Assembly: GCA_048499675.1 (NCBI GenBank) | Contig: JASNZL010000002.1 | Coordinates: 40,138-104,137 of the forward strand | DNA: 64,000 bases | Source of the DNA: Candidatus Zambryskiibacteriota bacterium | GTDB lineage: Bacteria > Patescibacteriota > Minisyncoccia > Phycocordibacterales > WO2-35-19 | Reading direction: 5' to 3' | Shown: piece by piece, positions 8,549 to 59,429 of the stretch | Layout: each line of letters opens with the position of its first letter | How positions within the stretch are numbered: position 1 is the first letter of the stretch | Program-made: the position numbers and the translations under genes | The notes under the pieces: model-generated | Told to the model about the DNA's origin: nothing | The model's input: only the letters and a program-made list of their open reading frames with translations | Database searches by the model: none

Positions 8549-8584
8549 TCTTTAATATATTTATAAAAAGCTCCAAAATAGAGC

Positions 8585-8850
8585 TACTCCAAGGTATCAA
8601 ATATAATAAAATAAGTCAACCCAGTAGTGAATTTTGGCATTGGACTCCATCCGCGCATTGTATGCGATGCCAAAATCTACTACTGGGTCAATCCCCGCTC
8701 ACCAATTTTGGTATTATTGCGAGACAATCTTTTTCTTTGTTTTTAGTGTTCGGTTTTGATGACAAATTTAATAGCGAGTAAGTTATTGATGTTGCAATAT
8801 ATAAAATACCAAAATTTGTGGCATGGGTATACCCACTCACTAATCTTTGC
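8585..8850 (-). repeat. structured ~270-bp repeat in the sense leader of the rpsZ operon; inverted copy of 55188-55560
   Basis: The reverse complement aligns (~80-85% by eye) with 55188-55560, including gtgagYgg..cccatgccacMaattttggtat, ..cgaacactMRaaacaaagaaaa.., aataccaaaattRgtgagcggggattgaccc and the gtagtRRattttggcat..atgccaaaatYYactac hairpin. Confidence 0.75.
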
Positions 8851-9036
8851 TTATAAATTAGATTATATCTTTTTTATATGATAATCTTTTTAGTACGGAG
8901 AGTTAACTCCGTGGATGAAAAGCAAACTTCTTTGCTTTTCATCCGGTCTGCGAACGGAAGTGAGCAGAATTGCCGTTGCGAGCTTTGCGAGCAGGCAATA
9001 GGTGGACGAAAGGGACTTTCGACCACTGCCATAAAC

Positions 9037-9258: not shown

Positions 9259-9259
9259 C

Positions 9260-9299
9260 TTCGAATCCCTCACTCTCCGCTTGAGCTTCGCGAAAGCGG
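9260..9299 (+). repeat. 40-bp duplicate of tRNA-Ser 3-prime end (T-loop to end) plus 20 nt downstream
   Basis: Identical to 9105-9144 (ttcgaatccctcactctccgcttgagcttcgcgaaagcgg). Confidence 0.85.
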
Positions 9300-9351
9300 T
9301 GTGTATTGGACGAAGTTCGAATGTATTTCGGACAAAATCCGCAGGATTTTG

Positions 9352-9490
9352 ACGAATGACACTTGCGCCTCGCGCTCCCTTCGGTCGCGAACCAAAACCA
9401 AAAATTTCCTTACCAATCCTTTTTCGGCGGGGGGTGTGGGGGGAGCCGGCAAAAAATGGAAAGGAAAATTTTTGGTTTTGGTTCCGACGC
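9352..9490. repeat. left copy of an imperfect inverted repeat bracketing the 9.5-14.65 kb cargo; internally a 21-bp-stem hairpin with a G-rich loop
   Basis: Its reverse complement matches 14660-14795 (~85%); inner stem gaaccaaaaccaaaaatttcc / ggaaaatttttggttttggttc; loop contains cggcggggggtgtggggggagccggc. Confidence 0.75.
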
Positions 9491-9552
9491 TTCATAAATA
9501 CAGTATATGGCAATTTGGAATAATACACAATGGAATATTATTATATAAATAT

Positions 9553-9774
9553 ATGCCAAGAGCAATTTATCAAGATGACCACAAGAAAATCGTTGAGCGC
9601 TTGAAACAAGCACGGCTTGAGGTTGGTCTTGGGCAGGTTGAAGTTGCTGAGAAGCTTGGTAGAACTCAGTCGTATGTCTCAAAGATTGAATCAGGGCAAC
9701 GGCGCTTTGATGTTTTGCAACTCAAAGAGTTTGCAAAACTTTATAAAAAATCCTTGGATTTTTTTGTTAAATAA
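9553..9774 (+). CDS. XRE-family helix-turn-helix transcriptional regulator (C-protein-like)
   Basis: LKQARLEVGLGQVEVAEKLGRTQSYVSKIESGQRRFDVLQLKEFAKLY is a classic Cro/C1 HTH; the start is placed at the internal ATG because the upstream part of the track ORF lies in the repeat. Confidence 0.7.
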   Translation: MPRAIYQDDHKKIVERLKQARLEVGLGQVEVAEKLGRTQSYVSKIESGQRRFDVLQLKEFAKLYKKSLDFFVK

Positions 9775-9775
9775 C

Positions 9776-10858
9776 ATGAATCATAACCATGAAATTATAA
9801 TTACTAAGCAAGATGTTGTTCCGTACATCTATTTTGTATGTTCAATGGCTCAACGAGGCAGGATGTATGGGGGTCTTAGTGGAAAAAGTGATTATATTGG
9901 AGGGGTTTTTGATCGTTGGATAAATATAATTCCCGAAAGTGTAATTTTCAACAAATATTTTTTGCCCAGAATAGCCAATAATCTATCTGTCATTTCTGAC
10001 TATTATGAGTACGACCCAAAGAAATCCGGCATAGCCCCTGATGTGCTTGGTATAAGAGCTGGTCAAGACGCTAAGCCTTTTGTTGAATATGTAAATAAAT
10101 GGCAAGCATTAAATAATGCACCGCAAATTGAGGTAAAATCCTTCAAAAAAGCGCAGTACATGGTTAGTTTGAGGAACCAAGGGTACGACAATAAATATCT
10201 TGTCATGGTTGAAACAAATCTTGATAGCGATTACTTATTGCCTTTTTTTGAACAAACAGTCTTTAGTGAAGATGTCTACAACAAACTTAAAATGGACGAT
10301 AGAGTTTTTATAAAATCTAATGTTAACAATGACTTATCTTCCGTTACAAAAATTAATAGAAATAATACGGATTTAGGCTCACTAAAACTTATAACAGTTT
10401 GTTCAGCAAAAGATTTTATGTCTTTTTCAACTCTCTGCTCCTCAAATGAGAGCCCGATTTATGTAAAAGAAGTAAATGAAACTAGAACTGCAAAAACCAC
10501 TACAATTACAACGCCTTTATCTAATTATCTAACAAAAAATAGTAACAATTTATATAGTTGGAATAATAATTTGTTAGACAAAAATAACAAACATAAAATA
10601 CTAGATGTTTATATTGATGACATTCAAAACATTCATTTTGTAAAAAATAGTAAAAGCTCTATTACTATTACAACAACAGGTAGAGCCACTATAAATAATG
10701 TGGTTTTGGAAGCAAATAAAACCTATATTATTAAGTTCCAACTATTAGATCGTTCTTCAAACAATGGTGAGGAGTATTTTATGCATAAGTCCGTTATCGA
10801 TAAAATACCTAGTAAAGAGGACATTATGTTGGAGTCTATAAAGCAATATATAAAATAG
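9776..10858 (+). CDS. hypothetical protein, candidate restriction endonuclease partner of the adjacent methyltransferase
   Basis: 360 aa with no recognised family; weak PD...EVK pattern (IAPDVLGI ... IEVKSFKK); sits between the C-protein-like regulator and the convergent C5-MTase. Confidence 0.4.
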   Translation: MNHNHEIIITKQDVVPYIYFVCSMAQRGRMYGGLSGKSDYIGGVFDRWINIIPESVIFNKYFLPRIANNLSVISDYYEYDPKKSGIAPDVLGIRAGQDAKPFVEYVNKWQALNNAPQIEVKSFKKAQYMVSLRNQGYDNKYLVMVETNLDSDYLLPFFEQTVFSEDVYNKLKMDDRVFIKSNVNNDLSSVTKINRNNTDLGSLKLITVCSAKDFMSFSTLCSSNESPIYVKEVNETRTAKTTTITTPLSNYLTKNSNNLYSWNNNLLDKNNKHKILDVYIDDIQNIHFVKNSKSSITITTTGRATINNVVLEANKTYIIKFQLLDRSSNNGEEYFMHKSVIDKIPSKEDIMLESIKQYIK

Positions 10859-12436
10859 TTATTGCATTGCTCGCATCATTTCTTTTGCCACAGCTTCAAT
10901 AACAGGAACACTAACGGAATTTCCAGCTTGTTTGTATAGTGCCGAATCAGAAATTTTTGGAAGTTTGTAATTTTTTGGAAAGCCTTGAATTCTAAAACAC
11001 TCTAACGGAGTCAATTTTCGTATACCCTTTTTATCTTTTATGATTGGCACATTATGTCCACCTGTCCCCATGTTTGCAGTTAAAGTTGGGCAAACACCAC
11101 TTTTATTTTCTCTAACATATTGTCTGCGCCATTGATACACTTTACCTTCTTCCTTTACGTCATTTTTTAATCTTTCATATAATGGCTTGCCATTATAGTA
11201 ATATTTTTCAGGCACGTTTTTCTCCAATAGATCGGTTACTTTTTTCGTGAGCTTTATTGGTTTTGGAAACTCAAACTTATCAAAGTAGTTTTTATTTTTG
11301 AACCCTACAATATAGATACGCTCTCGATTTTGTGGCACATTTCCATACTCCATAGTATTTAGAACTTTTGATTTTACAAAGTATCCAAGATCTTCAAGTG
11401 TTTTTTCTATAACCTCAAAAGTTTTCCCCGAATCATGGCTCTTTAGATTTTTTACATTTTCAAGCAAAAAGCCTTCTGGTTTTCGTGCCTCAATGATCCT
11501 TGCAATATCGAAAAATAAATTTCCTCTATCCTTTTTATCTTTAAAGCCGTGCCTATATCCAGCAATAGAAAAAGCTTGGCAAGGGAAACCTCCTAAAAGA
11601 AAATCAAATTTAGGCAAATCATCAATTCCAATTTTTCGTATATCCTCAACTATTAATTTTGAATCTTTAAAATTAAGATCGTATGTATCTTTACATTGTG
11701 GTTCAAAGTCATTAGCAAAAACTGTTTGGAATCCAGCATTTTCAAAACCGATCCTTATCCCTCCTACACCCGCAAATAAATCTATTGTATTAAAACCATG
11801 TTTAGTTTTTTGTTTTGGCTTGAATTCTTCTTCGAACTGTATATTTCTAATTACTTGGACAACAACACCCCGAACTTCAACCTCTTTTCTATAAAATGGG
11901 AGCATTGATTGATTTCTCGGTTCAAGCCTAAACCGTGATTTTTCTCTATACAACTTTTTGAGTGTTGCTTCATTATCATCAATAATTGCAACGACTGTTT
12001 GTCCATTTTCTGCAACAGACTGTTTTTTTATCACAACAACATCTCCGTCAAAAATACCCTCGTCAATCATACTTTCTCCGACAACTCGTAGAGCATAATA
12101 ATCTTTAGAGTTTTGTATATTAGGATCAACAAGAGAGATAAAATCTTCTCGATTTTCTATTGCCTCAATAGGCTGTCCTGCCGCAATATTGCCTAAAATC
12201 GGAATTTCAACAACAGATTTTATTTCTTTCATGAGAGATAAACTTCTTGGAGAATTTTCAGACCTTGAAATATACCCCTTTGCCTCTAGGGAATTGATAT
12301 GCTCGTGAATGGTGGAAACTGCTTTTAGTTTTAGCTCTTTCCTGATCTCTTCAATCGTTGGGGAAATACCATTTTCAGAGATATATGTTTTTATAAAATC
12401 AAAAACCTGTTTTTGCTTTTTTGTAAGTTTAGACAT
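10859..12436 (-). CDS. fusion protein: complete LexA-like repressor (wHTH + S24 peptidase) fused to a Dcm-type DNA cytosine-5 methyltransferase
   Basis: N-terminal ~200 aa is LexA-like: MSKLTKKQKQVFDFIK...EIRKEL...EAKGYI, IAAG cleavage-site context, GESM serine, LKKL lysine, VVAII..ATLKKLYRE. C-terminal ~320 aa has m5C MTase motifs: DLFAGVGG (I), GGFPCQAFSIAG (IV), LLENV (VI), QNRERIY (VIII), GNSVSVPV (X). Confidence 0.8.
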   Translation of the reverse strand: MSKLTKKQKQVFDFIKTYISENGISPTIEEIRKELKLKAVSTIHEHINSLEAKGYISRSENSPRSLSLMKEIKSVVEIPILGNIAAGQPIEAIENREDFISLVDPNIQNSKDYYALRVVGESMIDEGIFDGDVVVIKKQSVAENGQTVVAIIDDNEATLKKLYREKSRFRLEPRNQSMLPFYRKEVEVRGVVVQVIRNIQFEEEFKPKQKTKHGFNTIDLFAGVGGIRIGFENAGFQTVFANDFEPQCKDTYDLNFKDSKLIVEDIRKIGIDDLPKFDFLLGGFPCQAFSIAGYRHGFKDKKDRGNLFFDIARIIEARKPEGFLLENVKNLKSHDSGKTFEVIEKTLEDLGYFVKSKVLNTMEYGNVPQNRERIYIVGFKNKNYFDKFEFPKPIKLTKKVTDLLEKNVPEKYYYNGKPLYERLKNDVKEEGKVYQWRRQYVRENKSGVCPTLTANMGTGGHNVPIIKDKKGIRKLTPLECFRIQGFPKNYKLPKISDSALYKQAGNSVSVPVIEAVAKEMMRAMQ

Positions 12437-12522
12437 ATTGCATTAAAAATTCATTTGCGCTACAATTTCATTGTAACCGAAAAGAAGCCGAAAAGTAAAG
12501 CGAGATTATCCACAATAATATT

Positions 12523-13764
12523 ATGAACGAACATTTTGAAAAATTTATAGATAATATCTCCCTGACTAAAAATCAAAGAGATGATTCTCTTACAAAATAT
12601 ATTGGAATATGCAAAACTCTGAATTCTGAATTCTACAGCTCAGAATATTCTGACTCTGTGAAGTTTTTGTTTGGCTCCTATAAGAAGAAAACAACCATTT
12701 CACATACAGGAAAAGATGTTGATGTTATTTTTAAAATCCCACAAGAAAAATTTGAAGAGTACCAAAAGCAAGAAAATGGACCCTCTAACCTGTTGACCAA
12801 AGTTAAAAATACTCTGAAAGACACTTATTCAACTACAGACAAAATAAAAAATTGGACAAAAGTGGTGGTGGTTGATTTCTCTACTTTTAAGGTAGAGATA
12901 CTCCCTGCGCTTGAAAAAGATGATGGTAAATTTATTGTTCCCAACACTGGAGATGGAGAAGATTGGATTATTTTTGATCCAAAAAGCGAAATAACGAGTT
13001 TTAAAAATTCAAATAACTCAAACAATGGGTTAACAAGAAACTTAATTAAAATTATCAAGAAATGGAAAATTGAAACAGGAAACGTAAATATAAAAACTTA
13101 CATTTTGGATAAGTACGTCATAGATTTTTTGAGTAATTATTCTTTTGCAAGTTATCCGAAAACCATTTTAGATTTTTTTGAATATTTGCATAAAAAAGAA
13201 AGTGGAACAAATATAGAAACAGCAAAAAATAGAGCAAAAAAAGCATATGCTTTTTACGAAGAAAACAATATTGAAAAGGCGGTAGAAGAATATCAAAAAA
13301 TCTTTGTGAATGGTTTCCCTAGAAATATTAAAAAAGAAGTTGGTGACTTTACAGATTACGTTAAAGCTCCAAATGAACAATTCATAGAAGATTTTTTTAG
13401 AGTTTCTTTAGATAAAAAAATAGACATTAATATTGAAACACGATGTAAACCTAAAAAAGGAGGCTTTATGAAGAGCATATTGTTGAGTAGATTACCAAAT
13501 GGTTGGGTATCTAAAAAAGATGATCTTGAGTTCGTTCTTAATACTAAAAACTTATCTGGGGAGTACTTAACTAAATGGAAAGTAAGAAATTTTGGCGAAG
13601 AAGCAACAAGAGATGGTAAACTCAGGGGAGAGATACTTGAGGATAATAATGGGATTCATAAATATAAAGACGGTGCGGCATTTTATGGAGAACATTTTTT
13701 AGAGTGTTACATTATTCAAAATAATATATGTATCGCGAGAAAAAGAGTTGTTGTACCAATATAG
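12523..13764 (+). CDS. pol-beta-superfamily nucleotidyltransferase resembling CD-NTase/SMODS (cGAS/DncV-like)
   Basis: FLFGSYKKKTTISHTGKDVDVIF fits the GS-x(9-13)-DhD signature, with a third acidic strand VVVVDFSTFKVEILPA; 413 aa; followed by a 2-TM partner. Confidence 0.45.
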   Translation: MNEHFEKFIDNISLTKNQRDDSLTKYIGICKTLNSEFYSSEYSDSVKFLFGSYKKKTTISHTGKDVDVIFKIPQEKFEEYQKQENGPSNLLTKVKNTLKDTYSTTDKIKNWTKVVVVDFSTFKVEILPALEKDDGKFIVPNTGDGEDWIIFDPKSEITSFKNSNNSNNGLTRNLIKIIKKWKIETGNVNIKTYILDKYVIDFLSNYSFASYPKTILDFFEYLHKKESGTNIETAKNRAKKAYAFYEENNIEKAVEEYQKIFVNGFPRNIKKEVGDFTDYVKAPNEQFIEDFFRVSLDKKIDINIETRCKPKKGGFMKSILLSRLPNGWVSKKDDLEFVLNTKNLSGEYLTKWKVRNFGEEATRDGKLRGEILEDNNGIHKYKDGAAFYGEHFLECYIIQNNICIARKRVVVPI

Positions 13765-13768
13765 AAAT

Positions 13769-14332
13769 ATGGATAAAAACAATCTATCAATCATAAGGCA
13801 ACAGTTTGCACAATGTGTGTTTACTCACAAGGTCTTGGAAAAGGCTTCTGATAGACTTGAGAAAGTAAATACGAAGATCAAATGGGCTAACGTCATAATT
13901 TTAGCCCTTGTTGTGGTTTTTCTTGTATTGCCAATTAGATTTCCTGAGTACTCATTTTTGAATGATGTCGCTATAGCCATAACAGTCTTTGAAATTTTAT
14001 TTGTCTATTTTCAAAAGGAATTTTCTTTTGAAGAAAAAGCAAAAGATCACAAAAAATTTGCCTTAAAATTTCTAGAGCTTCGTGATAAGTACAAAAATTT
14101 TATTGTTGATATAACAAACGGATTAGATAGTGGAGAAATCAGAACAAAGAGAGACCTTTTACAAGAACAGTATCAGATTATTAGTAGTTTAACCCCACAA
14201 ACTGAGTATATTGACTATAAAGAAGCGCAACTTGCTTTGTTGGGAAAAAATATTTCTGATGAAGAATTTACATGGTCTGACAAAGAGATAGATCGTTTTT
14301 TACCGAAAGAGTTAAGATTCGAAGAAGATTAA
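13769..14332 (+). CDS. small 2-TM protein, candidate SLATT-like effector partnered with the nucleotidyltransferase
   Basis: Two hydrophobic helices (WANVIILALVVVFLVLPI, VAIAITVFEILFVYF) then a charged C-term; overlaps the end of the upstream gene, suggesting coupling; an alternative TTG start lies at 13748. Confidence 0.4.
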   Translation: MDKNNLSIIRQQFAQCVFTHKVLEKASDRLEKVNTKIKWANVIILALVVVFLVLPIRFPEYSFLNDVAIAITVFEILFVYFQKEFSFEEKAKDHKKFALKFLELRDKYKNFIVDITNGLDSGEIRTKRDLLQEQYQIISSLTPQTEYIDYKEAQLALLGKNISDEEFTWSDKEIDRFLPKELRFEED

Positions 14333-14390
14333 AGAGGGTTTCGCTTGCGCGCGCATGGGAGGGTTGGGGCAAGCGCAATATGATTTGCTT

Positions 14391-14426
14391 GTGCCATTCG
14401 TCAGTTTGGCACAATCCGCTTTTTTA
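14391..14426 (+). terminator. rho-independent terminator after the 2-TM gene
   Basis: gtgcca-ttcgtcagtt-tggcac then aatccgctttttt. Confidence 0.5.
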
Positions 14427-14659
14427 GAGTTACCACGAACGCCGTCGAAGTCACAGAGCGAACACGAAGCAAGTACCGAGCAGGCATCGTGAGCGAATGC
14501 GAACGGCAAATGCGAGGTGATTGCGAAGTGTGAGCGGACGACAGAGCTATCACAAAACGCGGAGAGGAAGCGCCTCGCCCGACGCGAATGACGGAGAAAA
14601 GGACGGACGGAATATTGCCACCATGCTAAAATATACATACGAGTCCTTTTTGGAGGAAT

Positions 14660-14795
14660 GAAGCGGCGGAAACAAAACCATAAAATTTCCTTTCATTTTT
14701 TGAGCGGCTCCCCCCACACCCCCCGCCGAAAATGGATAGGTAAGGAAATTTTTGGTTTTGGTTCGCGACCGCAGGGAGCGAGGCGCGCACTGTTC
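14660..14795. repeat. right copy of the inverted hairpin repeat (partner of 9352-9490)
   Basis: ggaaacaaaaccataaaatttcc ... ggaaatttttggttttggttc stem with loop gagcggctccccccacaccccccgccg. Confidence 0.75.
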
Positions 14796-14921
14796 GCTTC
14801 ACCACGCCTGCCTGCGCCGAGGCTTCGGCAGGCAGGCAATCCGAGCGTACGATTTGGGTTCAAAGCCACCACGCGCTCCGCGCGTGCGAAGTGGGTTCGG
14901 GCAAAGGTTAGTATCTCACCG

Positions 14922-15055
14922 CTTGAGCTTCGCGAAAGCGGAGAGTGAGGTCTAGCTTTTGTGCAACAAAAGCGTAAGACGGATTCGAAGCCCGATTGAG
15001 ATTTTTTAGGAGGGCAACGAACTAAAAAATCCAATTGGGGTACTGAAACTGTAAG
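14922..15055 (+). repeat. second copy of the 134-bp tRNA-Ser-downstream element, followed by a tRNA-like 3-prime fragment with encoded CCA (15056-15079)
   Basis: cttgagcttcgcgaaagcggagagtgagg...ggggtactgaaactgtaag, then tttcgactcctgtcccatccacca, which parses as T-loop, T-stem 3-prime, 7-nt acceptor 3-prime, discriminator and CCA. Confidence 0.75.
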
Positions 15056-15094
15056 TTTCGACTCCTGTCCCATCCACCAAGTTTTACATTCAGC

Positions 15095-18727: not shown

Positions 18728-18752
18728 AAACAAAAATTAGTGTGCGGGTAGG
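18728..18752. repeat. 25-bp direct repeat carrying the tRNA-Gly(UCC) 3-prime end plus 15 nt downstream (partner at 19039-19063)
   Basis: aaacaaaaattagtgtgcgggtagg occurs twice, flanking the GIY-YIG remnant; the 18728-18775 copy is also a long palindrome. Confidence 0.8.
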
Positions 18753-19038: not shown

Positions 19039-19053
19039 AAACAAAAATTAGTG

Positions 19054-19124
19054 TGCGGGTAGGGGTAATCGAAACCCCGACTCAAGTTTGGAAAACTCGC
19101 ATTTTACCACTAAACTATACCCGC
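19054..19124 (-). tRNA. tRNA-Gly (anticodon TCC)
   Basis: Reverse complement GCGGGTA-TA-GTTT-AGTGGTA-AAAT-G-CGAGT-TTTCCAA-ACTTG-AGTC-GGGGT-TTCGATT-ACCCC-TACCCGC-A. Confidence 0.8.
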
Positions 19125-28555: not shown

Positions 28556-28705
28556 ACGATTTGAATTTTCAATTTTGAATTTTCAATTTTTATTAAATTT
28601 AAAATTTCCAATGTTTCAATTATAACAAAATAAAACAAACAAAAGAAAAAACTTTGTTTATAAATATTAAAAAAACAGATGCTCCACTCTAAAGTAAAAC
28701 ATCTG

Positions 28706-29496: not shown

Positions 29497-29882
29497 TTAT
29501 GAAAAATTATTTGTTAATAAAATAAAAACTACCAACTCTATTCTACCACTTCTCGCCCCGCGATGAGTAAAGCGAATTTTGCGGGGTGTTTAATTACTGA
29601 CATAAGTTTAGTTAAAAATAAATATTAAAAATACCCACTAATCACACGAATTCTCACTAATCTTACTAATAAAAATTTAAGGTGAGCACGAGTTACGAAG
29701 TACGAGATACGATAAAAAATTAAATTTTAAGTTAAAAAGTTAATAATAGGATACAAATAATTATATCATAAAGATATAAGACAAATTATGGTGCCCAAAG
29801 AAAATTAGAACATTGAAAATTCAATGAAAATTGAGAATTTTAAATTAAAAATTTAAAAAGATAATAATTTAGAGAGAAATTA

Positions 29883-33957: not shown

Positions 33958-36141
33958 ATGCAGAAACTAAGTGATTTAAAAAGGCAGTTTTTGGAATATA
34001 TAGAAATTGAGAAAGGTCGTTCGCTTTTAACTATAGAAAACTACGACAGATATTTAACTCGTTTTTTGGAATTTTTGAAAAGCGAAGAACCAAAAGATAT
34101 AAATGACAATTCTGTTAGAGAATTTCGTCTTTGGCTCAATAGACAACCGGCAAGTAAAATAAAGAAAAATGCAGACACCTTGTCTCGTAGAACACAAAAC
34201 TATTATCTAATTGCTCTTCGCGCCTTTCTCAAATATCTTGCAAGACAAGGAGTTACTTCCCTATCGCCCGAAAAGATAGAGCTTGCCAAGACCCCAGAGA
34301 GATCTCTTGACCTAATCACAGACGACGAGCTTATTCGCCTCCTCAAATCCCCTTCTGGCGACAGTTTGAAAAGTTTGCGGGACAGAGCGATGTTACACCT
34401 CCTTTTTTCTACCGGTCTTCGTGTTTCTGAACTTTGTGCTCTTGACCGCGATATAGATTTAAAAAAAGACGAGCATTCTATTCGAGGAAAAGGTGGGAAA
34501 ATAAGGGTGGTTTTCTTTTCGGATGAAGCCAAGAAAGCTTTAAACGATTATTTAGAAAAAAGAAAAGACCTAAACGATGCAATGTTTATCCAACTTTCAA
34601 AAAATTTAAAACCAAATGCAAAAGGCGAAGATATGCGAATAAACAAACGCAGTGTCGCAAGAATTGTAAAACAATACGCCATCAAAGCCGGAATTTCCAA
34701 AAAAGTAACCCCGCATACACTAAGACATTGTCTCCACCCAGATACACTTATTCATTTGCCTTACACCATAACAAGCGCAAGGGAACTATATTTGTCCAAC
34801 ACAAAAAGAATAACATCGGTAGACCTTAATGTTGGGAAAACCGTAAAATCAAACATAATTCAAAAGAGAAAATATAAATCACTTGATATGATTTCTCTTT
34901 CTGCTAATGGTTATCAAATTTCTGTTACTCCAGACCACAAATTTTTTACTCTTGGAACAGATGGAATAGTGGAAATTAATGCAAGAGATATAAAGAAAAA
35001 TCAATTCATTGCTGGTGTTAAGAAAATAACAATGAATAGTTCAAAAAAATCAAGAAGTAAAAACAATTGGAGAATAATTGGTTATATTTTGGAGGATGGA
35101 ACAATAAGTGAGAAGAGGCGGGGGGTCATAATTTCTGATAAGAATCCAACTTTTATAGAATTTTATAAAGATTTAATTACTTCAGAATATAAACATAAAC
35201 CAACAATAAAAAAAATAGAAGGCGCAAATAATGTTATTTTAAATTTTTATTCAAAACAATTTGTTACTTATTTGAGAAAAATAGGAATAACAGAGAAATC
35301 ACCTCTCAGAAGAGTTCCTAAAATTTTATTCTCCCAAAGCAAAGAAGTTATAGCAGAATTTTTGGCTGGATATTACGACGCTGAAGGAAATGAGGGTAAT
35401 TCTATTAAATTTTTCTCTTCAAGTGAAATGCTTTTGCGAGATATTCAAATGTTATTATTAACTTTCGGGATTGATTCTCATTTATATAAAAGATTGAGGA
35501 GAGTAAAACTACCAAAAGGAAAAATTATAAGCCACAAAATGTTATATCTACAAATATTACACAAACCAGATCAGGAACTTTTTATTAAGATTGTTCCCAC
35601 CCTAAAAAAATTAAAAGCAAAAAGCTTTTTTGCAGGGGATAAAATTCCAGTCAGAAATATGTTAAAAGACATATATATAAATCTACCAAAAAAATGGCAC
35701 AATTTTGCTCAATATCTAAAAATAGATGGGAAAATTGATATATATAGATATGTTGGTAACACAACCAAAACAGTCCCCACAAAGAAAGTTTTGGAAAAGA
35801 TAATCAAATATTTTAGAGATGCTAAATGTAATGACCCGAGATTAGATTTTATGCAAAAACTCATTGATTCTGATATTCAGTGGCTTAGGGTTCAAAAAGT
35901 TGAAAGGTGTAAATATAATGGACCAGTATATGATTTCGCTGTAAATAAATATGAGAATTTAATAACAAACGGTTTTTTGTCGCACAACTGTTTTGCGACT
36001 GACCTTTTAAGCAATGGTGCTGATCTTCGCTCCGTTCAAGCTCTACTCGGCCACGCAAATATAGGCACAACTCAAGTTTACACCCATGTCACAGACCGCC
36101 ACCTCCGCGACATCCACAAAAAATTCCATAACAAAAAGTAA
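33958..36141 (+). CDS. XerC/XerD-family tyrosine recombinase interrupted by a 420-aa intein with LAGLIDADG homing endonuclease
   Basis: N-terminal SAM-like domain, catalytic region ...[19 protein letters not shown]...TPHTLRH, then CLHPD...[11 protein letters not shown]...[13 protein letters not shown]...GFLSHN, then [34 protein letters not shown]. The host exteins sum to ~307 aa. Confidence 0.85.
34729..35988 (+). mobile_element. intein (Cys1 ... His-Asn, then +1 Cys) with two LAGLIDADG motifs
   Basis: 1260 nt in frame; begins TGT directly after HTLRH and ends CAC AAC directly before TGT TTT GCG ACT. Confidence 0.8.
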
Positions 36142-36181
36142 AGACAACTTTTTTTATGTGCTAAAATAATTTTATGAATCC

Positions 36182-36251
36182 GGTAGTGAATTTTGGCAAT
36201 AATTCCTACGGAATTGGTTAATTAATTAACATTGCCAAAATCTACTACTGG
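36182..36251 (+). repeat. third copy of the gtagtgaattttggca..tgccaaaatctactac hairpin, abutting the start codon of the Fic gene
   Basis: ccggtagtgaattttggcaat-N29-attgccaaaatctactactgg; the same hairpin occurs at 8614-8680 and 55480-55556. Confidence 0.7.
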
Positions 36252-37256
36252 ATGAAAAACGAACACAACAAATTACAAAGTATTGTCATTTATAAAGACA
36301 AGAAAGGTAATGTTGAACTAAAAACCGATATTCAAAAAGAAACAATTTGGGCAACTCAGGACCAGATTGCTTTTCTTTTTGGTACAAAAAGGCCGGCAAT
36401 TACAAAGCACTTACAAAACATCTTTAAATCAAACGAATTAAATAAGAATTCAGTTAGTTCCATTTTGGAACATACTGCAAGCGACGGAAAGAAATACAAA
36501 ACCCAATTCTACAACTTGGACGCGATGATTGCTGTTGGATATAGAGTAAACTCAAAAAGAGCTACTCAATTTCGTATCTGGGCAACCAAAACGTTGAGAG
36601 ATTACATAATCAAAGGTGTTGCTATAAATACCGAAAGAATAAAAAAATTGCATGAAGCAGGACTCAAAGATTTGCAAAACAAAATTGAATTTATTCAAAA
36701 CACTATTCAAAAAAGAGAACTGGATAAAGACGAGATCCAGAGTCTTTTGTCTGTCATAAAGGATTATGCAAACTCCTGGACCACTCTCAAAGAATATGAC
36801 GAGGGTGATATTGTAATCAAAAAAAGCAAAAACAAAGAGAGAAAAATTTTTGATTATGAATTTGCCCGTAAAGCAATCGATGAATTAAAAATAAACCTTG
36901 TTAACAAAAAAGAAGCGGGTGATTTGTTTGGTAACGAAAGAGATGAAACATTCAAAGGCATTCTAAAAACAATTTATCAAACATTTGACAGCAAAGAGCT
37001 ATACGCGAGCTTAGAAGAAAAAGCTTCTCATTTGTTGTATTTTATAATCAAAGACCATCCGTTTTCTGATGGAAACAAAAGGGTTGGTTCTCTTTTGTTC
37101 ATTTTATTTCTAGAAAGAAATAATATTTTACTTAGAAAAAATGGGGAAAGAAAAATAAACGACAATACTCTTGTTGCCCTTGCCCTCTTGGTTGCCGAAA
37201 GCAATCCTAATGAAAAAGAAACAATGACTGCTTTAATTACAAACCTTTTGATTTAA
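36252..37256 (+). CDS. RhuM-family N-terminal domain plus Fic/Doc domain protein
   Basis: YNLDAMIAVGYRVNSKRATQFRIWATKTLRDY (RhuM-like) and a C-terminal Fic motif HPFSDGNKRVGS. Confidence 0.75.
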   Translation: MKNEHNKLQSIVIYKDKKGNVELKTDIQKETIWATQDQIAFLFGTKRPAITKHLQNIFKSNELNKNSVSSILEHTASDGKKYKTQFYNLDAMIAVGYRVNSKRATQFRIWATKTLRDYIIKGVAINTERIKKLHEAGLKDLQNKIEFIQNTIQKRELDKDEIQSLLSVIKDYANSWTTLKEYDEGDIVIKKSKNKERKIFDYEFARKAIDELKINLVNKKEAGDLFGNERDETFKGILKTIYQTFDSKELYASLEEKASHLLYFIIKDHPFSDGNKRVGSLLFILFLERNNILLRKNGERKINDNTLVALALLVAESNPNEKETMTALITNLLI

Positions 37257-52633: not shown

Positions 52634-52788
52634 AGTGGACATTATGCTATCATAAGACTTGTATAAAGACAAGTAATTTTTAATTTAAAATTTTTAATTT
52701 TCATTCAATTTTCAATGTTTTAATATTTGAAAATTAAATAATTAAGACATTTATTGGAAATTCTAAATTGAAAATTGAAAATTAATAT

Positions 52789-54778: not shown

Positions 54779-55159
54779 ATGGAAAAGGAGAATAAAAAAA
54801 GAATACTTGTTGTAGACGATGATGAAAATCTAAGATTGGTTTTGGTCGACAAACTAAATCAATCTGGTTTTGAAGCGATTGGTCTCGAAAATGGGAAATT
54901 GGGTTTAGAAAAAGCCCTAGAAACACATCCTGACGCTATTCTGCTTGATATTTTAATGCCAGTTATGAATGGTTGGGAAATGCTAGAGAAATTAAGGGAG
55001 GATGAATGGGGCAAAAATGCTAAAGTGATAATGTTAACCGTAATGGAAAATTCGGAATCAGTAGCCAGAGCAGTAGAGGATGGTAGTTTTAGTTATCTTA
55101 TAAAATCCAACCAGAGTATGGAAGATATTGTAAATAAGGTAAACGAAATTCTAAAATAA
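54779..55159 (+). CDS. response regulator receiver domain protein (stand-alone REC)
   Basis: ILVVDDDENLR...LLDILMPVMNGWE... Confidence 0.8.
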   Translation: MEKENKKRILVVDDDENLRLVLVDKLNQSGFEAIGLENGKLGLEKALETHPDAILLDILMPVMNGWEMLEKLREDEWGKNAKVIMLTVMENSESVARAVEDGSFSYLIKSNQSMEDIVNKVNEILK

Positions 55160-55187
55160 TCTTTCAAACAAACTCTCGCCATTCCAA

Positions 55188-55560
55188 CTTGTGAGCGGGC
55201 CTGCCCATGCCACCAATTTTGGTATCTTAAATATTGCAACATATATAACTCGCTAGTTATGGGATAGGTCACCAATATCGAACACTCGAAACAAAGAAAA
55301 GGGTCGTATTGCAATAATACCAAAATTAGTGAGCGTGCCTGCCCATGCCACCAATTTTGGTATCTTCTTGTAGAAACACCAAGGAGAGTATTGATTTGGG
55401 TATATCGCCAGATCCAATGTGGCGCAATGTTTTAATATGTAATCTTTCTACAATACCAAAATTAGTGAGCGGGGATTGACCCGTAGTGAATTTTGGCATT
55501 GGTTATAAACCATGCACTTCGTGCCATGCCAAAATCTACTACGGGGTTGCTTTTTTCTCC
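55188..55560 (+). repeat. structured repeat in the rpsL leader (partner of 8585-8850) with an internal ~135-bp tandem duplication and a terminal hairpin plus T tract
   Basis: Two gtgagcgNgcctgcccatgccaccaattttggtatctt modules (55190 and 55323), then aataccaaaattagtgagcggggattgacccgtagtgaattttggcat...atgccaaaatctactacggggttgcttttttc. Confidence 0.75.
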
Positions 55561-55610
55561 GCTTTGTATTAGATTTGTATTTGTCCGCGGAAGCGGTTTT
55601 TAAATAGAAA

Positions 55611-56021
55611 ATGGCTACAATAAACCAACTTATAAAAAGAAAGAGAAAAGACGTAAAGAAAAAGTCTAAAGCTATTGCTTTGGGCCATGGTTTTAATACA
55701 TTAAAAAACAGGCCAGTAAAATATACTTCACCTTTCAAAAGGGGTGTTTGTGTAAAAGTAACAACCAAAACACCTAGAAAACCAAACTCTGCTATCAGAA
55801 AAATAGCCAGAGTAAGACTTACAAACGGTACAGAAGTGACCGCATACATTCCAGGTATTGGACATAATTTGCAGGAACACTCAGTGGTTTTGTTAAGAGG
55901 GGGTAGAGTAAAAGACATTGGAGTTAGATACACAGTAGTAAGAGGCAAGCTAGATGCTGGAGGTGTTGAGAAAAGAATGACCTCAAGATCAAGTTATGGC
56001 GCTAAAAGACCTAAAAAGTAA
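55611..56021 (+). CDS. rpsL: 30S ribosomal protein S12
   Basis: [45 protein letters not shown]. Confidence 0.9.
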
Positions 56022-56632: not shown

Positions 56633-56887
56633 TTACCCCAAACTTCCTTCTATTCGTTCTTTCAAAAACCTTCTAGCATTTCCTCTCAATTTTAGTGCTT
56701 GCTCTCTGAGGCGAGCATCTTTTTCACTTTTGTATGCTTCATAGTATACTAATTCAAACGGTCTCCTAAATTGAGTAGAAAAAGATAACCCCTTTTGATG
56801 TTCTTCAAATCTTCTTTTAAGGTTATTTGTACTGCCTATGTATAATTCAGAATCTTTAAAACTTTTTAATACATAAACGTAAAACAT
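56633..56887 (-). CDS. GIY-YIG nuclease family protein (YhbQ/UPF0213-like), intact copy
   Basis: MFYVYVLKSFKDSELYIGSTNNLKRRFEEHQKG...; lies antisense between rpsG and fusA. Confidence 0.75.
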   Translation of the reverse strand: MFYVYVLKSFKDSELYIGSTNNLKRRFEEHQKGLSFSTQFRRPFELVYYEAYKSEKDARLREQALKLRGNARRFLKERIEGSLG

Positions 56888-57067: not shown

Positions 57068-59221
57068 ATGAACAGAGACTATCCATTAGATAAAGTAAGA
57101 AACTTTGGTATCATCGCGCACATTGACGCTGGAAAAACAACAACTTCGGAGCGTATTTTATATTACACAGGAAGTCAGCACAAAATAGGGGAAGTTCATG
57201 AAGGCGAAACAACAACAGACTGGATGGAACAAGAGAGAGAAAGAGGCATCACAATTACAGCGGCGGCAATTACTTGTTTTTGGGGACCAACTTATCTCTC
57301 GCCCGAAGAAAGAAACAAAAAAGAAAACAAATTTAGATTTAATATTATTGACACCCCAGGTCACATTGACTTCACTGCAGAAGTAAAAAGATCTATGAGA
57401 GTTTTGGATGGTGCCGTTTGTGTTTTTGATGGAGTAGCTGGTGTTGAACCACAGTCAGAAACAAACTGGAGATACGCTGAAGAAGCAAATGTTCCAAGAC
57501 TTTGTTTTATAAACAAACTAGACAGAATAGGAGCAAACTTTGAAAAATCCTACAAATCAATTTTAGATAGACTTTCCAAAAAAGCGGTGCGAATGCAAGT
57601 ACCTTTAGGAGAAGAGGATAAACACGAAGGTGTTGTTGATTTGCTCCAAATGAAAGCTTTTGATTTTGAAGGCAAGCTCGGTGACAATGTTATCGAAGTG
57701 GCTTTTCCTGAAAATCTAAGAGCAGATGCAGAAAAATACAGAGCAGAATTAATTGAAAAAATAGTAGAAAATGATGAAGAGTTGATGAACAAATATCTTG
57801 CCGGAGAAGAAATTCCTCTTACTGATTTGAAAAAAACACTAAGAAAGGCGGTGATTGAAAACAAAATATTCCCAGTATTTTGCGGTTCTGCTCTAAAAAA
57901 TAAAGGGGTGCAGTTGGTGCTTGATGCTGTTGTTGATTATCTACCAAGTCCACTTGATATCCCAGCCATAAAAGGTACAGATCCAAAAACAGGCGAAGAA
58001 ATTGAGAGACATCCATCTGATGAGGAACCATTCTCAGCCCTTGCTTTCAAACTACAAGCAGACCCATTTGTTGGACAACTAACTTTCTTTAGAGTTTATT
58101 CTGGAACAATAGAATCCGGTTCATATATATATAATGCAAACACAGGAGACAAAGAAAGACTGGGAAGAATCGTAAGACTTCAAGCTGATAAGAGGGAAGA
58201 GGTGAAAAAAGTTTATGCTGGAGAAATCGCTGCGGCTGTTGGGTTAAAAGATGCAAAAACTTCACACACATTTTGTGACGAAAATAATCCAATATTACTT
58301 GAAGAAATTGTATTTCCAGAACCAGTTATTTCTCTTAGAATTGAACCGAAAACTAAAGCTGACCAAGAAAAAATGGGGCTTGCTCTTAAACGACTTTCTG
58401 ACGAAGACCCAACATTTAGAATTAAATCGGATTCTGAAACCGGAGAAACTGTTATTTCTGGAATGGGTGAACTTCACTTGGATATCATCGTTGACAGAAT
58501 GAAGAGAGAATTCAATGTAGAAGCAAATGTTGGCGCGCCTCAAGTGGCTTACAAAGAAACAATCACTGGTACCGCTGAAGCAGAAACAAAATACATCAAG
58601 CAAACAGGAGGTAAGGGTCAGTACGGTCACGTCAAACTTAACATCAAACCATTACAACCAGAAGAGGAGGGTGCCAAGAAACAGAAAAACGTACACAGAG
58701 AAGATGGTTTTGAATTTATTGATTCTATCAAAGGTGGTGTCATTCCTTCAGAGTTTATTCCAGCAGTTGAAAAAGGTGTAAAAGAAGCAATGGAAAGAGG
58801 AATTGTGGCTGGATACAAGATGACGGATATTTCTTGTGAACTAACTTTTGGTTCATATCACGATGTTGACTCTTCAGAAATTGCATACAAAATCGCGGCT
58901 TCACAAGCTTTCCAGGAAGCAGCCAAAAAAGCAAACCCAGTTATTCTTGAACCAATAATGAAAGTTGAAGTAGTTGTTCCAGAAAAATTCATGGGTGATG
59001 TGACGGGTTACCTATCATCAAAGAGAGGTTTGATAGAAGGAATGGATGATAGGGCAGGCAACAAAGTTGTCAAAGCAAAAGTGCCTCTTTCTGAACTATT
59101 CGGATATGTTACCACCCTCAGATCTATGACAGAAGGCAGGGGAAACGCCAACATTGAATTTGATCACTACGCAATTGTCCCACCAAATGTCGCCATGGCG
59201 ATAGCAGAAAGCAGAAAGTAA
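57068..59221 (+). CDS. fusA: elongation factor G
   Basis: [33 protein letters not shown], domains II-V. Confidence 0.9.
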
Positions 59222-59291
59222 TATAGTCACAAAACGACAATAACCATTTCTCGCCCCGTGAATCTTTTGAGTAGCAAAAGATTTTTACGGG

Positions 59292-59332
59292 GTCCCACCA
59301 AATGTCGCCATGGCGATAGCAGAAAGCAGAAA
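59292..59332 (+). repeat. 41-bp direct duplicate of the fusA 3-prime end (59177-59217), 115 bp downstream
   Basis: gtcccaccaaatgtcgccatggcgatagcagaaagcagaaa is present twice; the stop codon differs (aaagtaa versus aaaataa) but both would encode ...[14 protein letters not shown]; the 72-bp spacer holds a ccccgtgaatcttttg...caaaagattttacgggg hairpin related to 29540-29590. Confidence 0.8.
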
Positions 59333-59429
59333 ATAAAAAAGAAATAAGATATAAGAAGTAAGATATAAGATTAGAGACAAAAGTTGAAGCCCCGCACTGG
59401 ATGGTGCAGGGCTTTTGTAAAACACGAGT

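What the first reader, a model, noticed from the sequence alone, without database searches (positions are those of the whole stretch)
55188..55560. The same ~270-370 bp structured element lies in the sense leader of both ribosomal-protein operons (rpsL and rpsZ), with a third hairpin-only copy before a Fic gene
8585-8850 (minus) and 55188-55560 (plus) are ~80-85% identical. Each points into the downstream r-protein operon, and each ends with the gtagtgaattttggca...tgccaaaatctactac hairpin followed by a T tract, which is attenuator- or terminator-like. The rpsL copy has an internal 135-bp tandem duplication. The same terminal hairpin alone abuts the start codon of the Fic gene at 36182-36251. 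Possible roles: a mobile promoter/leader module, an autoregulatory r-protein binding leader, or a small RNA.
Basis: seen in the sequence. Interest (0 to 1): 0.6.

Follow-up and report, generated by a model that had tools for sequence, protein, structure and literature searches.

The report
Mobile hairpin repeats upstream of promoters
The shared "leader" in front of two ribosomal-protein operons is a pile-up of small mobile palindromic DNA elements that are common in Paceibacteria (CPR) genomes and sit just upstream of the promoters, so it is most likely selfish repeat DNA, not a ribosomal-protein control RNA.

Summary
The repeats are real, but they are not one structured leader. The terminal hairpin (element A, 66-74 bp) belongs to a large family. 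A has conserved 20-bp inverted ends (CCnGTAGTGAATTTTGGCA / TGCCAAAATCTACTACnGG) and a variable, palindromic interior. It carries a 4-5-bp target-site duplication (TnnA), and I found orthologous filled and empty sites, so it is a MITE-like insertion element. About 40% of copies abut a promoter element, where the duplicated TTGA(C) is the -35 box. Orientation relative to genes is random (74 vs 72). At rpsZ and rpsL the predicted promoter lies downstream of the hairpin, and the "T tract" is the promoter spacer. The hairpin is inverted between the two loci. The upstream 136-138-bp unit (element B) occurs only in this lineage. It is absent upstream of rpsZ in a strain with an identical S14. Its "tandem duplication" is really two units with identical ends and unrelated interiors. 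The Fic copy belongs to a subfamily that always lands on start codons, which remains unexplained. Verdict: a nest of mobile elements, and a new member of a known kind.

The parts
55480..55545 (+). Element A, rpsL copy: 66-bp palindromic insertion element (CCCG TAGTGAATTTTGGCA ... TGCCAAAATCTACTA CGGG), GA/CT orientation on the + strand. The interior forms two mini-hairpins.
   Evidence: Imperfect flanking repeat TTGA (55476-55479) / TTGC (55547-55550).
8620..8687 (+). Element A, rpsZ copy: same family, GA/CT orientation on the + strand, so inverted relative to rpsZ (minus strand) and to element B. Flanked by the 4-bp duplication TCAA at 8616-8619 and 8688-8691.
   Evidence: (D12). An orthologous hairpin sits upstream of rpsZ in L012, L111, L023 and L130.
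36179..36252 (+). Element A, start-codon subfamily (termini T...A, interior ATAATTCCTACGGAATT...AACAT). Flanked by TGAA at 36175-36178 and 36253-36256. Its last A plus the duplicated TG rebuild the ATG of the RhuM/Fic gene (36252-37256).
   Evidence: Filled/empty proof for a sister copy at rpsB (L079 vs L078).
55191..55328 (+). Element B1 (138 nt): GTGAGCGGG-CCTG-CCCATGCCACCAATTTTGGTAT ... ATACCAAAATTA. Flanked by the direct repeat CCTG. The interior is 75% identical to the rpsZ B copy.
55329..55474 (+). Element B2 (136 nt plus the closing core GTGAGCGGGG at 55465-55474): same ends as B1, unrelated interior. The interior again extends the stem (TTGTAGAAA / TTTCTACAA).
8693..8840 (-). Element B, rpsZ copy (GTGAGTGGG-TATA-CCCATGCCACAAATTTTGGTAT ... 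ATACCAAAATTGGTGAGCGGGG). It is preceded by an ~18-nt remnant of another B right end. Absent in strain L130.
8591..8619 (-). Predicted rpsZ-operon promoter: -35 TTGACT (8619-8614), 17-nt spacer, extended -10 TGA-TACCTT (8599-8591). The -35 box overlaps the duplicated target of element A.
   Evidence: The -35 and -10 boxes are conserved and the spacer varies in L130. Equivalent TTGACT-N14-TGG-TAGCTT in L012/L111. In silico only.
55547..55575 (+). Predicted rpsL-operon promoter: -35 TTGCTT (55547-55552), 17-nt spacer, -10 TAGATT (55570-55575).
   Evidence: Read from the sequence. A parallel TTGCTT-17-TATACT follows a hairpin in L092. Weaker than the consensus and not called by the scan. In silico only.
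8569..8585 (-). Small hairpin plus T5 in the true rpsZ 5' leader (AGCTC-N7-GAGCT). This is the only leader structure downstream of the predicted promoter.
   Evidence: Conserved with compensatory changes in L111/L012.
55585..55601 (+). Small hairpin CCGC-GGAA-GCGG plus T5 in the true rpsL 5' leader.
   Evidence: A loop variant is seen in L002.

Best explanation
The '270-370-bp element' is not one functional unit. It is a nest of small non-autonomous palindromic insertion elements that have accumulated just upstream of the promoters of the rpsZ and rpsL operons.

**Element A** (the hairpin, 60-85 bp, rarely up to about 140 bp) is a MITE-like element widespread in Paceibacteria.
- It has 20-bp terminal inverted repeats ending CCC...GGG.
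- Its arms carry a conserved internal G.T/AxC asymmetry.
- Its interior varies in sequence but is palindromic.
- It is flanked by a 4-5-bp target-site duplication of the form TnnA.

Because it duplicates its target, an insertion into TTGA(C) of a -35 box, into TGnTA of an extended -10, or into A|TGA of a start codon leaves an intact copy of that signal on the gene side. Such insertions are therefore tolerated in these compact genomes (inference). This explains why A hugs promoters and start codons in either orientation.

**Element B** (136-138 bp) is a lineage-restricted relative. It has the same design (CCC...GGG ends, sub-terminal AATTTTGGTAT stem, variable structured interior). It has inserted next to A, and once next to another B (B1, duplication CCTG).

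The 80% similarity between the two operon upstream regions reflects copies of the same mobile elements, plus recombination between them. It does not reflect a shared regulatory leader.

**Shown:** family membership, copy number, TSD, filled/empty sites, nesting, lack of orientation bias, absence of B in a sister strain.
**Inferred:** transposition by a DDE enzyme of the IS1380/piggyBac type supplied in trans, the promoter positions, and neutrality for r-protein expression.
For: - All but a few generically labelled records are Patescibacteria/Paceibacteria MAGs. Single MAGs hold at least 7-11 copies.
- **Ends.** The conserved ends are A-CCC-n-G...C-n-GGG-T. An in-register 4-nt direct repeat is exact in 52 of 114 copies. 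The shifted-register controls give 0 and 4 of 114.
- **Filled vs empty sites.** L079 has ATCAT|element|ATCAT where L078 has ACCAT once. L033 carries an insertion inside the 16S rRNA gene that L030 and L066 lack. L026 carries a copy that L060 lacks.
- **Nesting.** L020 has an element nested within another element.
- **Assembly breaks.** Assemblies break inside the hairpin, as expected for a repeat.
- **Promoter adjacency.** 44 hairpin sides start with TTGA[CT], and 36 of these have TAnnnT at 16-18 nt. The baseline is 7.6% of all TTGA[CT], with 0.5 matches expected at random positions. Another 13 sides abut TGnTAnnnT.
- **Orientation.** There is no bias: 18 vs 16 next to promoters, and 74 vs 72 relative to the next downstream ORF.
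- **DNA-level palindrome.** Interior stems are almost purely Watson-Crick on both strands (G.U 4.5% vs 3.5%). C.A and T.G mismatches at arm position 3 are equally frequent (13 each). This points to a DNA palindrome, not a strand-specific RNA.
- **rpsZ comparisons.** The hairpin and promoter are orthologous in L012, L111 and L023, but the hairpin is in the opposite orientation there. L130 has identical S14, hairpin and promoter but lacks B.
- **rpsL in L035** has neither element.
- **Element B.** The B1 and B2 interiors are unrelated. B was not found in 812 kb of other Paceibacteria loci, in JGI metagenomes or in viral contigs.
- **No known RNA family.** There is no Rfam family match.
Against: - No autonomous element was found. 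No transposase gene flanked by CCnGTAGTGAA ends appears in 812 kb of fetched loci or in the window.
- The interior keeps hairpin potential (mean z = -3.1) although its sequence differs between subfamilies. A plain MITE model does not predict this.
- All 8 members of the start-codon subfamily are in sense orientation, which suggests some strand-specific constraint.
- Element B lacks clear terminal inverted repeats out to its tips. Only B1 shows a flanking duplication.
- The promoter positions are predictions, and the rpsL -35 box (TTGCTT) is weak. Read-through transcription from the upstream response-regulator gene across B and A cannot be excluded.
- The exact-arm search pattern biases the sample towards intact copies.
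Confidence: 0.75

Rival explanations
1. Cis-regulatory leader or attenuator. B plus A would be transcribed as the 5' leader of rpsL and rpsZ. Alternative pairings of the four AATTTTGGYAT segments (1:2, 2:3, 3:4) would then switch the terminal hairpin on or off as a terminator, perhaps on binding of an r-protein.
For: Four copies of the AATTTTGG(C/T)AT motif allow alternative pairings. Both loci precede r-protein operons. Both strands fold better than shuffles, z about -5.
Against: The hairpin is inverted between the two loci. The T run is 5 nt or more from the stem and is a promoter spacer. Conserved promoters lie downstream of the hairpin. B is absent in L130 and from all relatives. rpsL in L035 has neither element. 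The same hairpin occurs next to about 100 unrelated genes in random orientation. It even occurs inside a 16S rRNA gene. There is no Rfam hit.
Confidence: 0.05
2. Domesticated element. The family is mobile in origin, but copies now serve the host. They might act as read-through insulators upstream of strong promoters. They might act as RNase III or 5'-end stabilising stems. For the start-codon subfamily, they might act as a portable 5'-UTR that controls translation initiation.
For: About 40% of copies abut a promoter element. The hairpin upstream of rpsZ is kept in at least 5 genomes. The interior keeps its hairpins. All 8 members of the start-codon subfamily are in sense orientation, in front of genes as essential as rpsB, rpmI and gatC.
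Against: Orientation is random at promoters. Pairing is symmetric on both strands with almost no G.U. Orthologous sites show presence/absence. The hairpin at rpsZ flips orientation and changes interior between genomes. Target duplication plus purifying selection against harmful insertions explains the same distribution.
Confidence: 0.13
3. Element B encodes a small RNA (about 135 nt) with constant ends and a variable middle, expressed from its own promoter next to highly expressed operons.
For: Two paralogous B copies are 75-81% identical. The units have a fixed length of 136-138 nt. A long closing stem shows compensatory differences between B1 and B2.
Against: No significant promoter or terminator is found inside B. 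There is no Rfam match. B is absent from a sister strain and from every other genome sampled. The central 60 nt are A-rich and unstructured. B1 has a flanking 4-bp duplication like an insertion.
Confidence: 0.04
4. REP/REPIN-type element moved by a RAYT (IS200/IS605-like Y1 transposase). The GTAG...CTAC at the foot of the long hairpin would be the REP hallmark.
For: Each arm starts GTAG. The element is a 60-85-nt extragenic hairpin present in many copies. That REP heads carry GTAG is from memory, not tested here.
Against: Variable 4-5-bp target duplications and a clean filled/empty pair are not produced by single-strand 'peel and paste' transposition (established knowledge of IS200/IS605). The arms are not themselves palindromic REPs. 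No RAYT gene was seen in the window.
Confidence: 0.03

Closest known systems
Bacterial MITEs (e.g. Correia elements of Neisseria, ERIC, RUP, MITEAba12; review PMC3184786)
   Same: Small (60-140 bp), non-coding and multi-copy. It has terminal inverted repeats and a short target-site duplication. It is intergenic, inserts in either orientation and is often next to promoters. It nests, and orthologous sites show presence/absence.
   Different: The family is spread over many family-level lineages of one CPR class with near-invariant ends. The interior is not conserved in sequence, yet it nearly always forms one or two perfect mini-palindromes. No parent insertion sequence was identified. One subfamily lands precisely on start codons.
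IS1380 / piggyBac superfamily of DDE(D) transposons
   Same: The termini begin CCC...GGG and the target duplication is 4 bp of the T..A type (TCAA, TTGA, TGAA, TAAA). piggyBac has CCC ends and a TTAA duplication with variants such as TCAA and TAAA, and IS1380 is its prokaryotic relative (PMC10813416). IS1380 having 'CC' ends and 4-5-bp repeats is from memory of ISfinder.
   Different: No transposase was found, so the link is a resemblance of ends and duplication only. The target is relaxed (TnnA or TnnnA) rather than a strict TTAA.
REP / REPIN elements and RAYT transposases
   Same: Extragenic hairpins of similar size, with GTAG at the foot of each arm.
   Different: These elements make target-site duplications. 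The arms are not individually palindromic and are AT-rich. No RAYT gene was seen.
Ribosomal-protein leader RNAs and intrinsic attenuators
   Same: They lie in front of r-protein operons and have a stable stem-loop.
   Different: These elements lie upstream of the predicted promoters, are not orientation-fixed and are not conserved with the operons. They have no U tract adjacent to the stem and no Rfam match.
rRNA intervening sequences / CPR rRNA insertions
   Same: One copy (L033) sits as an extra stem-loop in a variable helix of a 16S rRNA gene.
   Different: Only one such case was seen. The same element is mostly outside rRNA genes.

Membership tests
MITE (miniature inverted-repeat transposable element) | Short (<~300 bp) and without coding capacity | tested here: met
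   A is 60-142 bp, median 69.5. B is 136-138 bp. Only spurious ORFs overlap them.
MITE (miniature inverted-repeat transposable element) | Terminal inverted repeats | tested here: met
   A has 20 paired positions, 18 of them Watson-Crick in at least 110 of 117 copies. B has a 15-nt inverted repeat, CACYAATTTTGGTAT, that does not reach the tips.
MITE (miniature inverted-repeat transposable element) | Target-site duplication of fixed length flanking each copy | tested here: met
   A has an in-register 4-nt repeat in 52 of 114 copies and a 5-nt repeat in 22 of 114. Shifted registers give 0-4. For B only B1 shows one (CCTG), so B is inconclusive.
MITE (miniature inverted-repeat transposable element) | Presence/absence at orthologous sites (mobility) | tested here: met
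   L079 vs L078, L033 vs L030/L066, and L026 vs L060. Nested copies occur in L020. B is present in the window and L129 and absent in L130, but there the breakpoint also changes the upstream synteny.
MITE (miniature inverted-repeat transposable element) | Many copies per genome | tested here: met
   At least 11 in JBAYKK, at least 8 in JBBUBJ, at least 7 in the 702-kb contig JBBTWE010000001, and 3 in this 64-kb window.
MITE (miniature inverted-repeat transposable element) | A related autonomous element with the same ends that encodes the transposase | tested here: not met
   No unpaired or distant arm pairs enclose an ORF in 812 kb of loci. None was found in the window. Whole genomes could not be searched.
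IS1380/piggyBac superfamily derivative | CCC...GGG termini and a 4-5-bp T..A duplication | tested here: met
   compared with PMC10813416.
IS1380/piggyBac superfamily derivative | Mobilised by a DDE/DDD transposase of that superfamily | not testable with these tools
Intrinsic terminator / attenuator | G+C-rich stem immediately followed by a U tract on the transcribed strand | tested here: not met
   The scan does not call either large hairpin. The T run begins 5 nt or more after the stem and overlaps the promoter spacer.
Intrinsic terminator / attenuator | Located within the transcript, downstream of the promoter | tested here: inconclusive
   Predicted promoters are downstream of the hairpin, and the rpsZ one is conserved across 4 genomes. 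There are no transcript data.
Ribosomal-protein autoregulatory leader | Conserved together with the operon across related genomes | tested here: not met
   B is absent from L130, L012, L111 and L023. Both A and B are absent upstream of rpsL in L035.
Ribosomal-protein autoregulatory leader | Match to a curated leader family | tested here: not met
   At the Rfam gathering threshold only tRNAs are found. The E-value scan gives only chance microRNA/snoRNA hits far below threshold.
REP/REPIN (RAYT-mobilised) | Insertion without target duplication, and a linked RAYT gene | tested here: not met
   Duplications are present. No Y1 transposase was found among the 10 window ORFs scanned against Pfam. The rest of the window was not scanned.
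Integron attC / CRISPR-like array (considered for element B) | GTTRRRY core sites next to an integron integrase, or short spacers with cas genes | tested here: not met
   The core is GTGAGCGGG, the 'spacers' are 86-88 nt, and one of them is duplicated at another locus. The only recombinase nearby is a Xer-type enzyme with an intein, 19 kb away from B.

The most novel reading that the evidence does not exclude
The hairpin family may be more than selfish DNA: a CPR-wide mobile cassette that is directed to gene-expression signals or selected at them. Copies sit against -35 boxes, extended -10 boxes and start codons. One subfamily has T...A termini and a fixed interior. It integrates exactly on ATG in sense orientation and rebuilds the start codon. 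It could act as a portable 5'-UTR or translation-control stem in organisms that use many leaderless or Shine-Dalgarno-less mRNAs. The conserved G.T/AxC bulge and the obligatory interior mini-hairpins would then be functional features, for example a processing site or a protein-binding site.
Probability: 0.13. Interest if true: 0.6.

Novelty: new member of a known kind. Interest (0 to 1): 0.33.

Why it matters
For this finding, the result removes a false lead. The shared sequence in front of rpsL and rpsZ should not be annotated as an r-protein leader, riboswitch or small RNA.

More broadly, it documents what appears to be an undescribed MITE family. No paper in the searched library contains the arm sequence. 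The family is spread through Paceibacteria genomes, which are usually regarded as streamlined and poor in repeats. This has practical and biological consequences:
- It breaks short-read assemblies at the hairpin.
- It marks promoters and start codons very precisely. That gives a free map of sigma70-type -35/-10 boxes and of leaderless genes in uncultivated CPR bacteria.
- It can sit inside a 16S rRNA gene.
- Its ends point to an IS1380/piggyBac-like transposase still to be found.

Tried and rejected
- **Rfam.** Neither the gathering-threshold scan of the whole window nor the permissive scan of 55100-55650 found any family apart from tRNAs.
- **Sigma70 promoters or intrinsic terminators inside A or B.** The counts are no higher than in shuffled sequence. 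By-eye candidates (TTGCAA-N17-18 in B, TTGGCA in the arms) lack a usable -10 box.
- **tRNA-like reading of the opposite strand (GGGTCAATCCCCGCTCACCA).** Rejected. ARAGORN and Rfam find nothing there. The 'T-arm' is simply the junction of B's GGG end, the duplicated target and A's CCC end.
- **Invertible-promoter switch.** Rejected. Only 22-45 bp lie between the arms, and the interiors differ between the flipped copies.
- **CRISPR-like or integron-like array for B.** Rejected (see the membership test).
- **More copies of B.** The 19-mer scan of JGI metagenomes gave 10 hits, all chance matches in ABC-transporter coding sequence. A gapped B pattern and the A pattern found nothing in viral contigs. 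B-like arm pairs are absent from 812 kb of Paceibacteria loci.
- **Autonomous element.** Searches for single arms, and for arm pairs up to 4 kb apart, found none.
- **Literature.** Searches for the arm sequence and for MITEs or repeats in CPR/Patescibacteria found no description.
- **Strand inference from G.U pairs.** No asymmetry was found.
- **Pfam census of all genes next to hairpins.** I began this but did not run it. The ORF list was too contaminated with spurious ORFs. Judged by eye it includes EF-Tu, rpoB, NusA, L10, L27, L35, S2, S15, S19 and HU, as well as many non-translation genes.
Full report

Yes, in outline. The regions upstream of rpsL (55611-56021, +) and rpsZ (8363-8548, -) share 81% identity over 132 nt and 92% over 49 nt. 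The 16-nt arm GTAGTRRATTTTGGCA occurs six times without mismatch, as three hairpins at 8620-8687, 36179-36252 and 55480-55545. At up to 3 mismatches there are 11 hits against 3.1 expected. The window has 35.5% G+C, and nothing else in it resembles these sequences.

Three details differ from the description.
- **The hairpin's orientation.** Its arms are asymmetric (left ...TAGTGAATTTT, right ...AAAATCTACTA). All three copies have the same orientation on the + strand (family D12). With respect to rpsZ and to the rest of the repeat, the rpsZ hairpin is therefore inverted compared with the rpsL one.
- **The "135-bp tandem duplication".** It is two units of 138 and 136 nt with identical ends. Their interiors are no more similar than shuffled sequence. 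B1 is 75% identical to the rpsZ unit.
- **Strand and fold energy.** Both strands fold equally well, with z about -4.5 to -5.5. Fold energy therefore cannot say that an RNA is involved.

**2. The hairpin (element A) belongs to a large family in Paceibacteria.**

- Almost all records are Patescibacteria/Paceibacteria MAGs: Zambryski-, Nomura-, Taylor-, Kaiser-, Vogel- and Wolfebacteria, plus TPA assemblies labelled Saccharibacteria. One record is labelled Elusimicrobia, and a few are unnamed "bacterium" records.
- Single MAGs carry at least 7-11 copies.
- The window's closest relatives are Zambryskibacteria, with S14 93% identical in L012.
- The GA/CT asymmetry is kept in 113 of 118 copies.
- Neither viral contigs, nor Rfam, nor the searchable literature contain or describe the element.

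**3. Anatomy of element A.**

I oriented all copies alike and compared them.
- **Ends.** The conserved ends are A-CCC-n-G TAGTGAATTTTGGCA(T/A) ... TGCCAAAATCTACTA C-n-GGG-T.
- **Arms.** Twenty positions pair. Position 3 covaries (C-G 40, A-T 19, G-C 16, T-A 7), and it shows equal numbers of C.A and T.G mismatches (13 each). Positions 9 and 10 are almost always G.T and AxC (112 and 111 of 117).
- **Sister subfamilies.** Some keep the outer 11-12 nt, including the asymmetry, but have different inner arms that remain complementary (AAAAATGGCA, AAAATGACA, AGTTGGCA, AAATCAG). A few are 124-142 nt long.
- **Interior.** The 22-45-nt interior is unrelated between subfamilies. It nevertheless folds far better than shuffles (mean z -3.1, with 88% of copies below -1.64), usually as two mini-hairpins.
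- **Pairing type.** Interior pairs are almost all Watson-Crick on both strands (G.U 4.5% vs 3.5%). This symmetry is what a DNA palindrome gives. A strand-specific RNA would not show it.

**4. Element A is an insertion element.**
- **Flanking repeat.** Immediately outside the ends there is a direct repeat. It is exact over 4 nt in 52 of 114 copies and over 5 nt in 22 of 114. Shifting the register by one base gives 0 and 4 of 114.
- **Form of the repeat.** It has the form TnnA or TnnnA (TCAA/TTGA most often, then TGAA, TCCA, TAAA, TGATA, TGGTA, TAGCA, TTGCA).
- **Orthologous sites with and without the element:**
  - L079 has ...ATCAT|element|ATCAT... at the rpsB start, where L078 has ACCAT once.
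  - L033 carries the element inside a variable helix of the 16S rRNA gene. L030 and L066 do not.
  - L026 has a copy that L060 lacks.
- **Nesting.** In L020 one element contains two others.
- **Assembly breaks.** Short-read assemblies of the window's own species break inside the hairpin.

Small size, inverted ends, target duplication, many copies and presence/absence variation are the defining features of a MITE.

CCC...GGG ends with a 4-bp T..A duplication recall the IS1380/piggyBac superfamily. piggyBac has CCC ends and a TTAA duplication with variants such as TCAA and TAAA, and IS1380 is its prokaryotic relative (PMC10813416). This is a lead only. No transposase with these ends was found in 812 kb of loci or in the window.

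**5. Where the copies sit, and what that means for the r-protein operons.**
- **-35 boxes.** Of 242 hairpin sides, 44 begin with TTGA[CT] within 10 nt, and 36 of these have TAnnnT 16-18 nt further on. The background rate is 7.6% of all TTGA[CT] in the same loci. Only 0.5 matches would be expected at random positions. The duplicated target is therefore very often the -35 box of a real-looking promoter.
- **Extended -10 boxes.** Another 13 sides abut an extended -10 box (GGG-TGnTAnnnT). A start codon often follows 6-12 nt later, which implies leaderless or near-leaderless mRNAs.
- **Orientation.** Hairpin orientation next to promoters is 18 vs 16. Relative to the next downstream ORF it is 74 vs 72.
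- **rpsZ.** At rpsZ the sequence after the hairpin is TTGACT-N14-TGA-TACCTT (8619-8591).
  - The same arrangement (hairpin, TTGACT, N14, TGG-TAGCTT) precedes rpsZ in L012 and L111. A TTGACA/TAGTAT version occurs in L023. In all three the hairpin has the opposite orientation to the window.
  - In strain L130 (S14 100% identical) the -35 and -10 boxes are unchanged while the spacer has five substitutions. This is the pattern expected of a working promoter.
- **rpsL.** At rpsL the equivalent is TTGCTT-N17-TAGATT (55547-55575). This is weaker and is supported only by analogy with L092.

The only structures in the true leaders are small hairpins followed by T5 (8569-8585 and 55585-55601).

**6. Element B.**

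The 136-138-nt unit has ends CCC-ATGCCACC-AATTTTGGTAT and ATACCAAAATT-AGTGAGC-GGG. It shares A's sub-terminal AATTTTGGYAT and its CCC/GGG tips, but it lacks A's GTAGTGAA block.
- The B1 and B2 interiors differ, but both prolong the stem (TATTGCAA/TTGCAATA vs TTGTAGAAA/TTTCTACAA).
- B1 is flanked by CCTG on both sides.
- B2 and the rpsZ copy share the right-hand junction GGG-GATTGA-CCC with A. Each array is preceded by a remnant of another B right end.
- B is absent from every other source searched.
- B is absent upstream of rpsZ in L130, where homology to the window starts exactly at GATTGAC.
- rpsL in another Paceibacteria genome (L035) has a 90-bp upstream region with neither A nor B.

B is thus a lineage-restricted and probably mobile relative of A. 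It is not a conserved part of either operon. Its exact mechanism is the least secure part of this account.

**7. The Fic copy.**

The gene at 36252-37256 encodes a RhuM/Fic protein. The gene upstream of it is a Xer-type recombinase interrupted by an intein.

The hairpin here belongs to a subfamily with T...A tips and the interior ATAATTCCTRCGGAATT...AACAT. All eight members found lie exactly on a start codon, in sense orientation. The genes are unrelated: Fic, rpsB, rpmI, gatC, a PIF1-like helicase (twice), a glycosyltransferase and a LOG-family gene.
- The duplication is TGA(W).
- The last A of the element plus the duplicated TG rebuilds the ATG, so the protein is unchanged.
- The rpsB case has a matching empty site.

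Target duplication explains why such insertions are tolerated. It does not explain the 8/8 sense orientation, which I leave as unexplained.

**8. Verdict.**

The sequence repeat is real. It is a nest of MITE-like palindromic insertion elements lying upstream of the rpsZ and rpsL promoters. The third hairpin is a member of the same family inserted at a start codon. The attenuator, leader and small-RNA readings fail on orientation, position, conservation and family-wide distribution.

The family itself seems to be undescribed. It has two odd properties, obligatory interior palindromes and a subfamily that targets start codons. As a kind of element, however, it is a new member of a known class.

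All statements about promoters and about neutrality are in silico. Transcript mapping and a search for the transposase are the decisive missing pieces.

Noticed in passing
window 9037-15065: tRNA-Ser(GCT) at 9037-9125 is followed by a ~5.8-kb island. The island is bounded by 151-nt direct repeats (9118-9268 / 14915-15065, 97%) that include the tRNA 3' end, and by 132-nt inverted repeats (9364-9495 / 14658-14789). Its cargo is a LexA-peptidase S24::C5 DNA methylase fusion, a SMODS/AGS_C nucleotidyltransferase with a SLATT_4 effector (CBASS-like defence), and an unknown 413-aa ORF.
   Followed up: partly
window 33958-36141: A XerC/D-type tyrosine recombinase is interrupted by an intein that carries a LAGLIDADG domain.
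   Followed up: partly
window 56633-56887 and 59177-59341: A GIY-YIG endonuclease-like ORF lies on the opposite strand between rpsG and fusA. It is also present in the Logan contigs L001/L002. A 50-nt direct repeat follows fusA, with start-to-start spacing of 115 nt.
   Followed up: no
window 1100-1170, 1980-2050, 2750-2815, 7100-7200, 7744-7855, 28560-28630, 29800-29860, 52670-52785: A second repeat family of AT-rich heptad-like runs (AATTTTC/AATTTTG)n occurs in many intergenic regions. One lies between rpsH and rplF inside the r-protein operon. Similar runs lie upstream of rpmA in Zambryskibacteria locus L092.
   Followed up: no
window 8569-8585 (-) and 55585-55601 (+): The predicted true 5' leaders of rpsZ and rpsL each begin with a small G+C-rich hairpin followed by T5. 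The rpsZ hairpin is conserved with compensatory changes in L111 and L012. It could be a 5'-end stabiliser or a genuine leader signal.
   Followed up: partly
window 18728-18752 and 19039-19063: An exact 25-nt direct repeat, 311 nt apart, overlaps the 3' end of tRNA-Gly(TCC) at 19053-19124. It may be the footprint of another integration at a tRNA gene.
   Followed up: no
window 8363-9125: The usual S10-spc r-protein cluster is split here. rpsZ starts its own operon with its own promoter, and a divergent tRNA-Ser lies upstream. In strain L130 a LAGLIDADG ORF occupies that upstream position instead.
   Followed up: partly
L033 845-916: A copy of the hairpin element is inserted inside a variable helix of the 16S rRNA gene of a Kaiserbacteria MAG. 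The orthologous position is empty in L030 and L066.
   Followed up: partly
L020 5673-6008: A 340-bp nest of four A-type elements lies in a Zambryskibacteria MAG. One element is split by two others, and its right end abuts the ATG of an ABC-F ATPase gene.
   Followed up: partly
L112, L114, L104, L077, L069, L036, L055, L014, L115 (right flanks of hairpins): Extended -10 boxes (TGnTAnnnT) lie only 6-12 nt upstream of start codons. This suggests that leaderless or near-leaderless mRNAs are common in these Paceibacteria.
   Followed up: no
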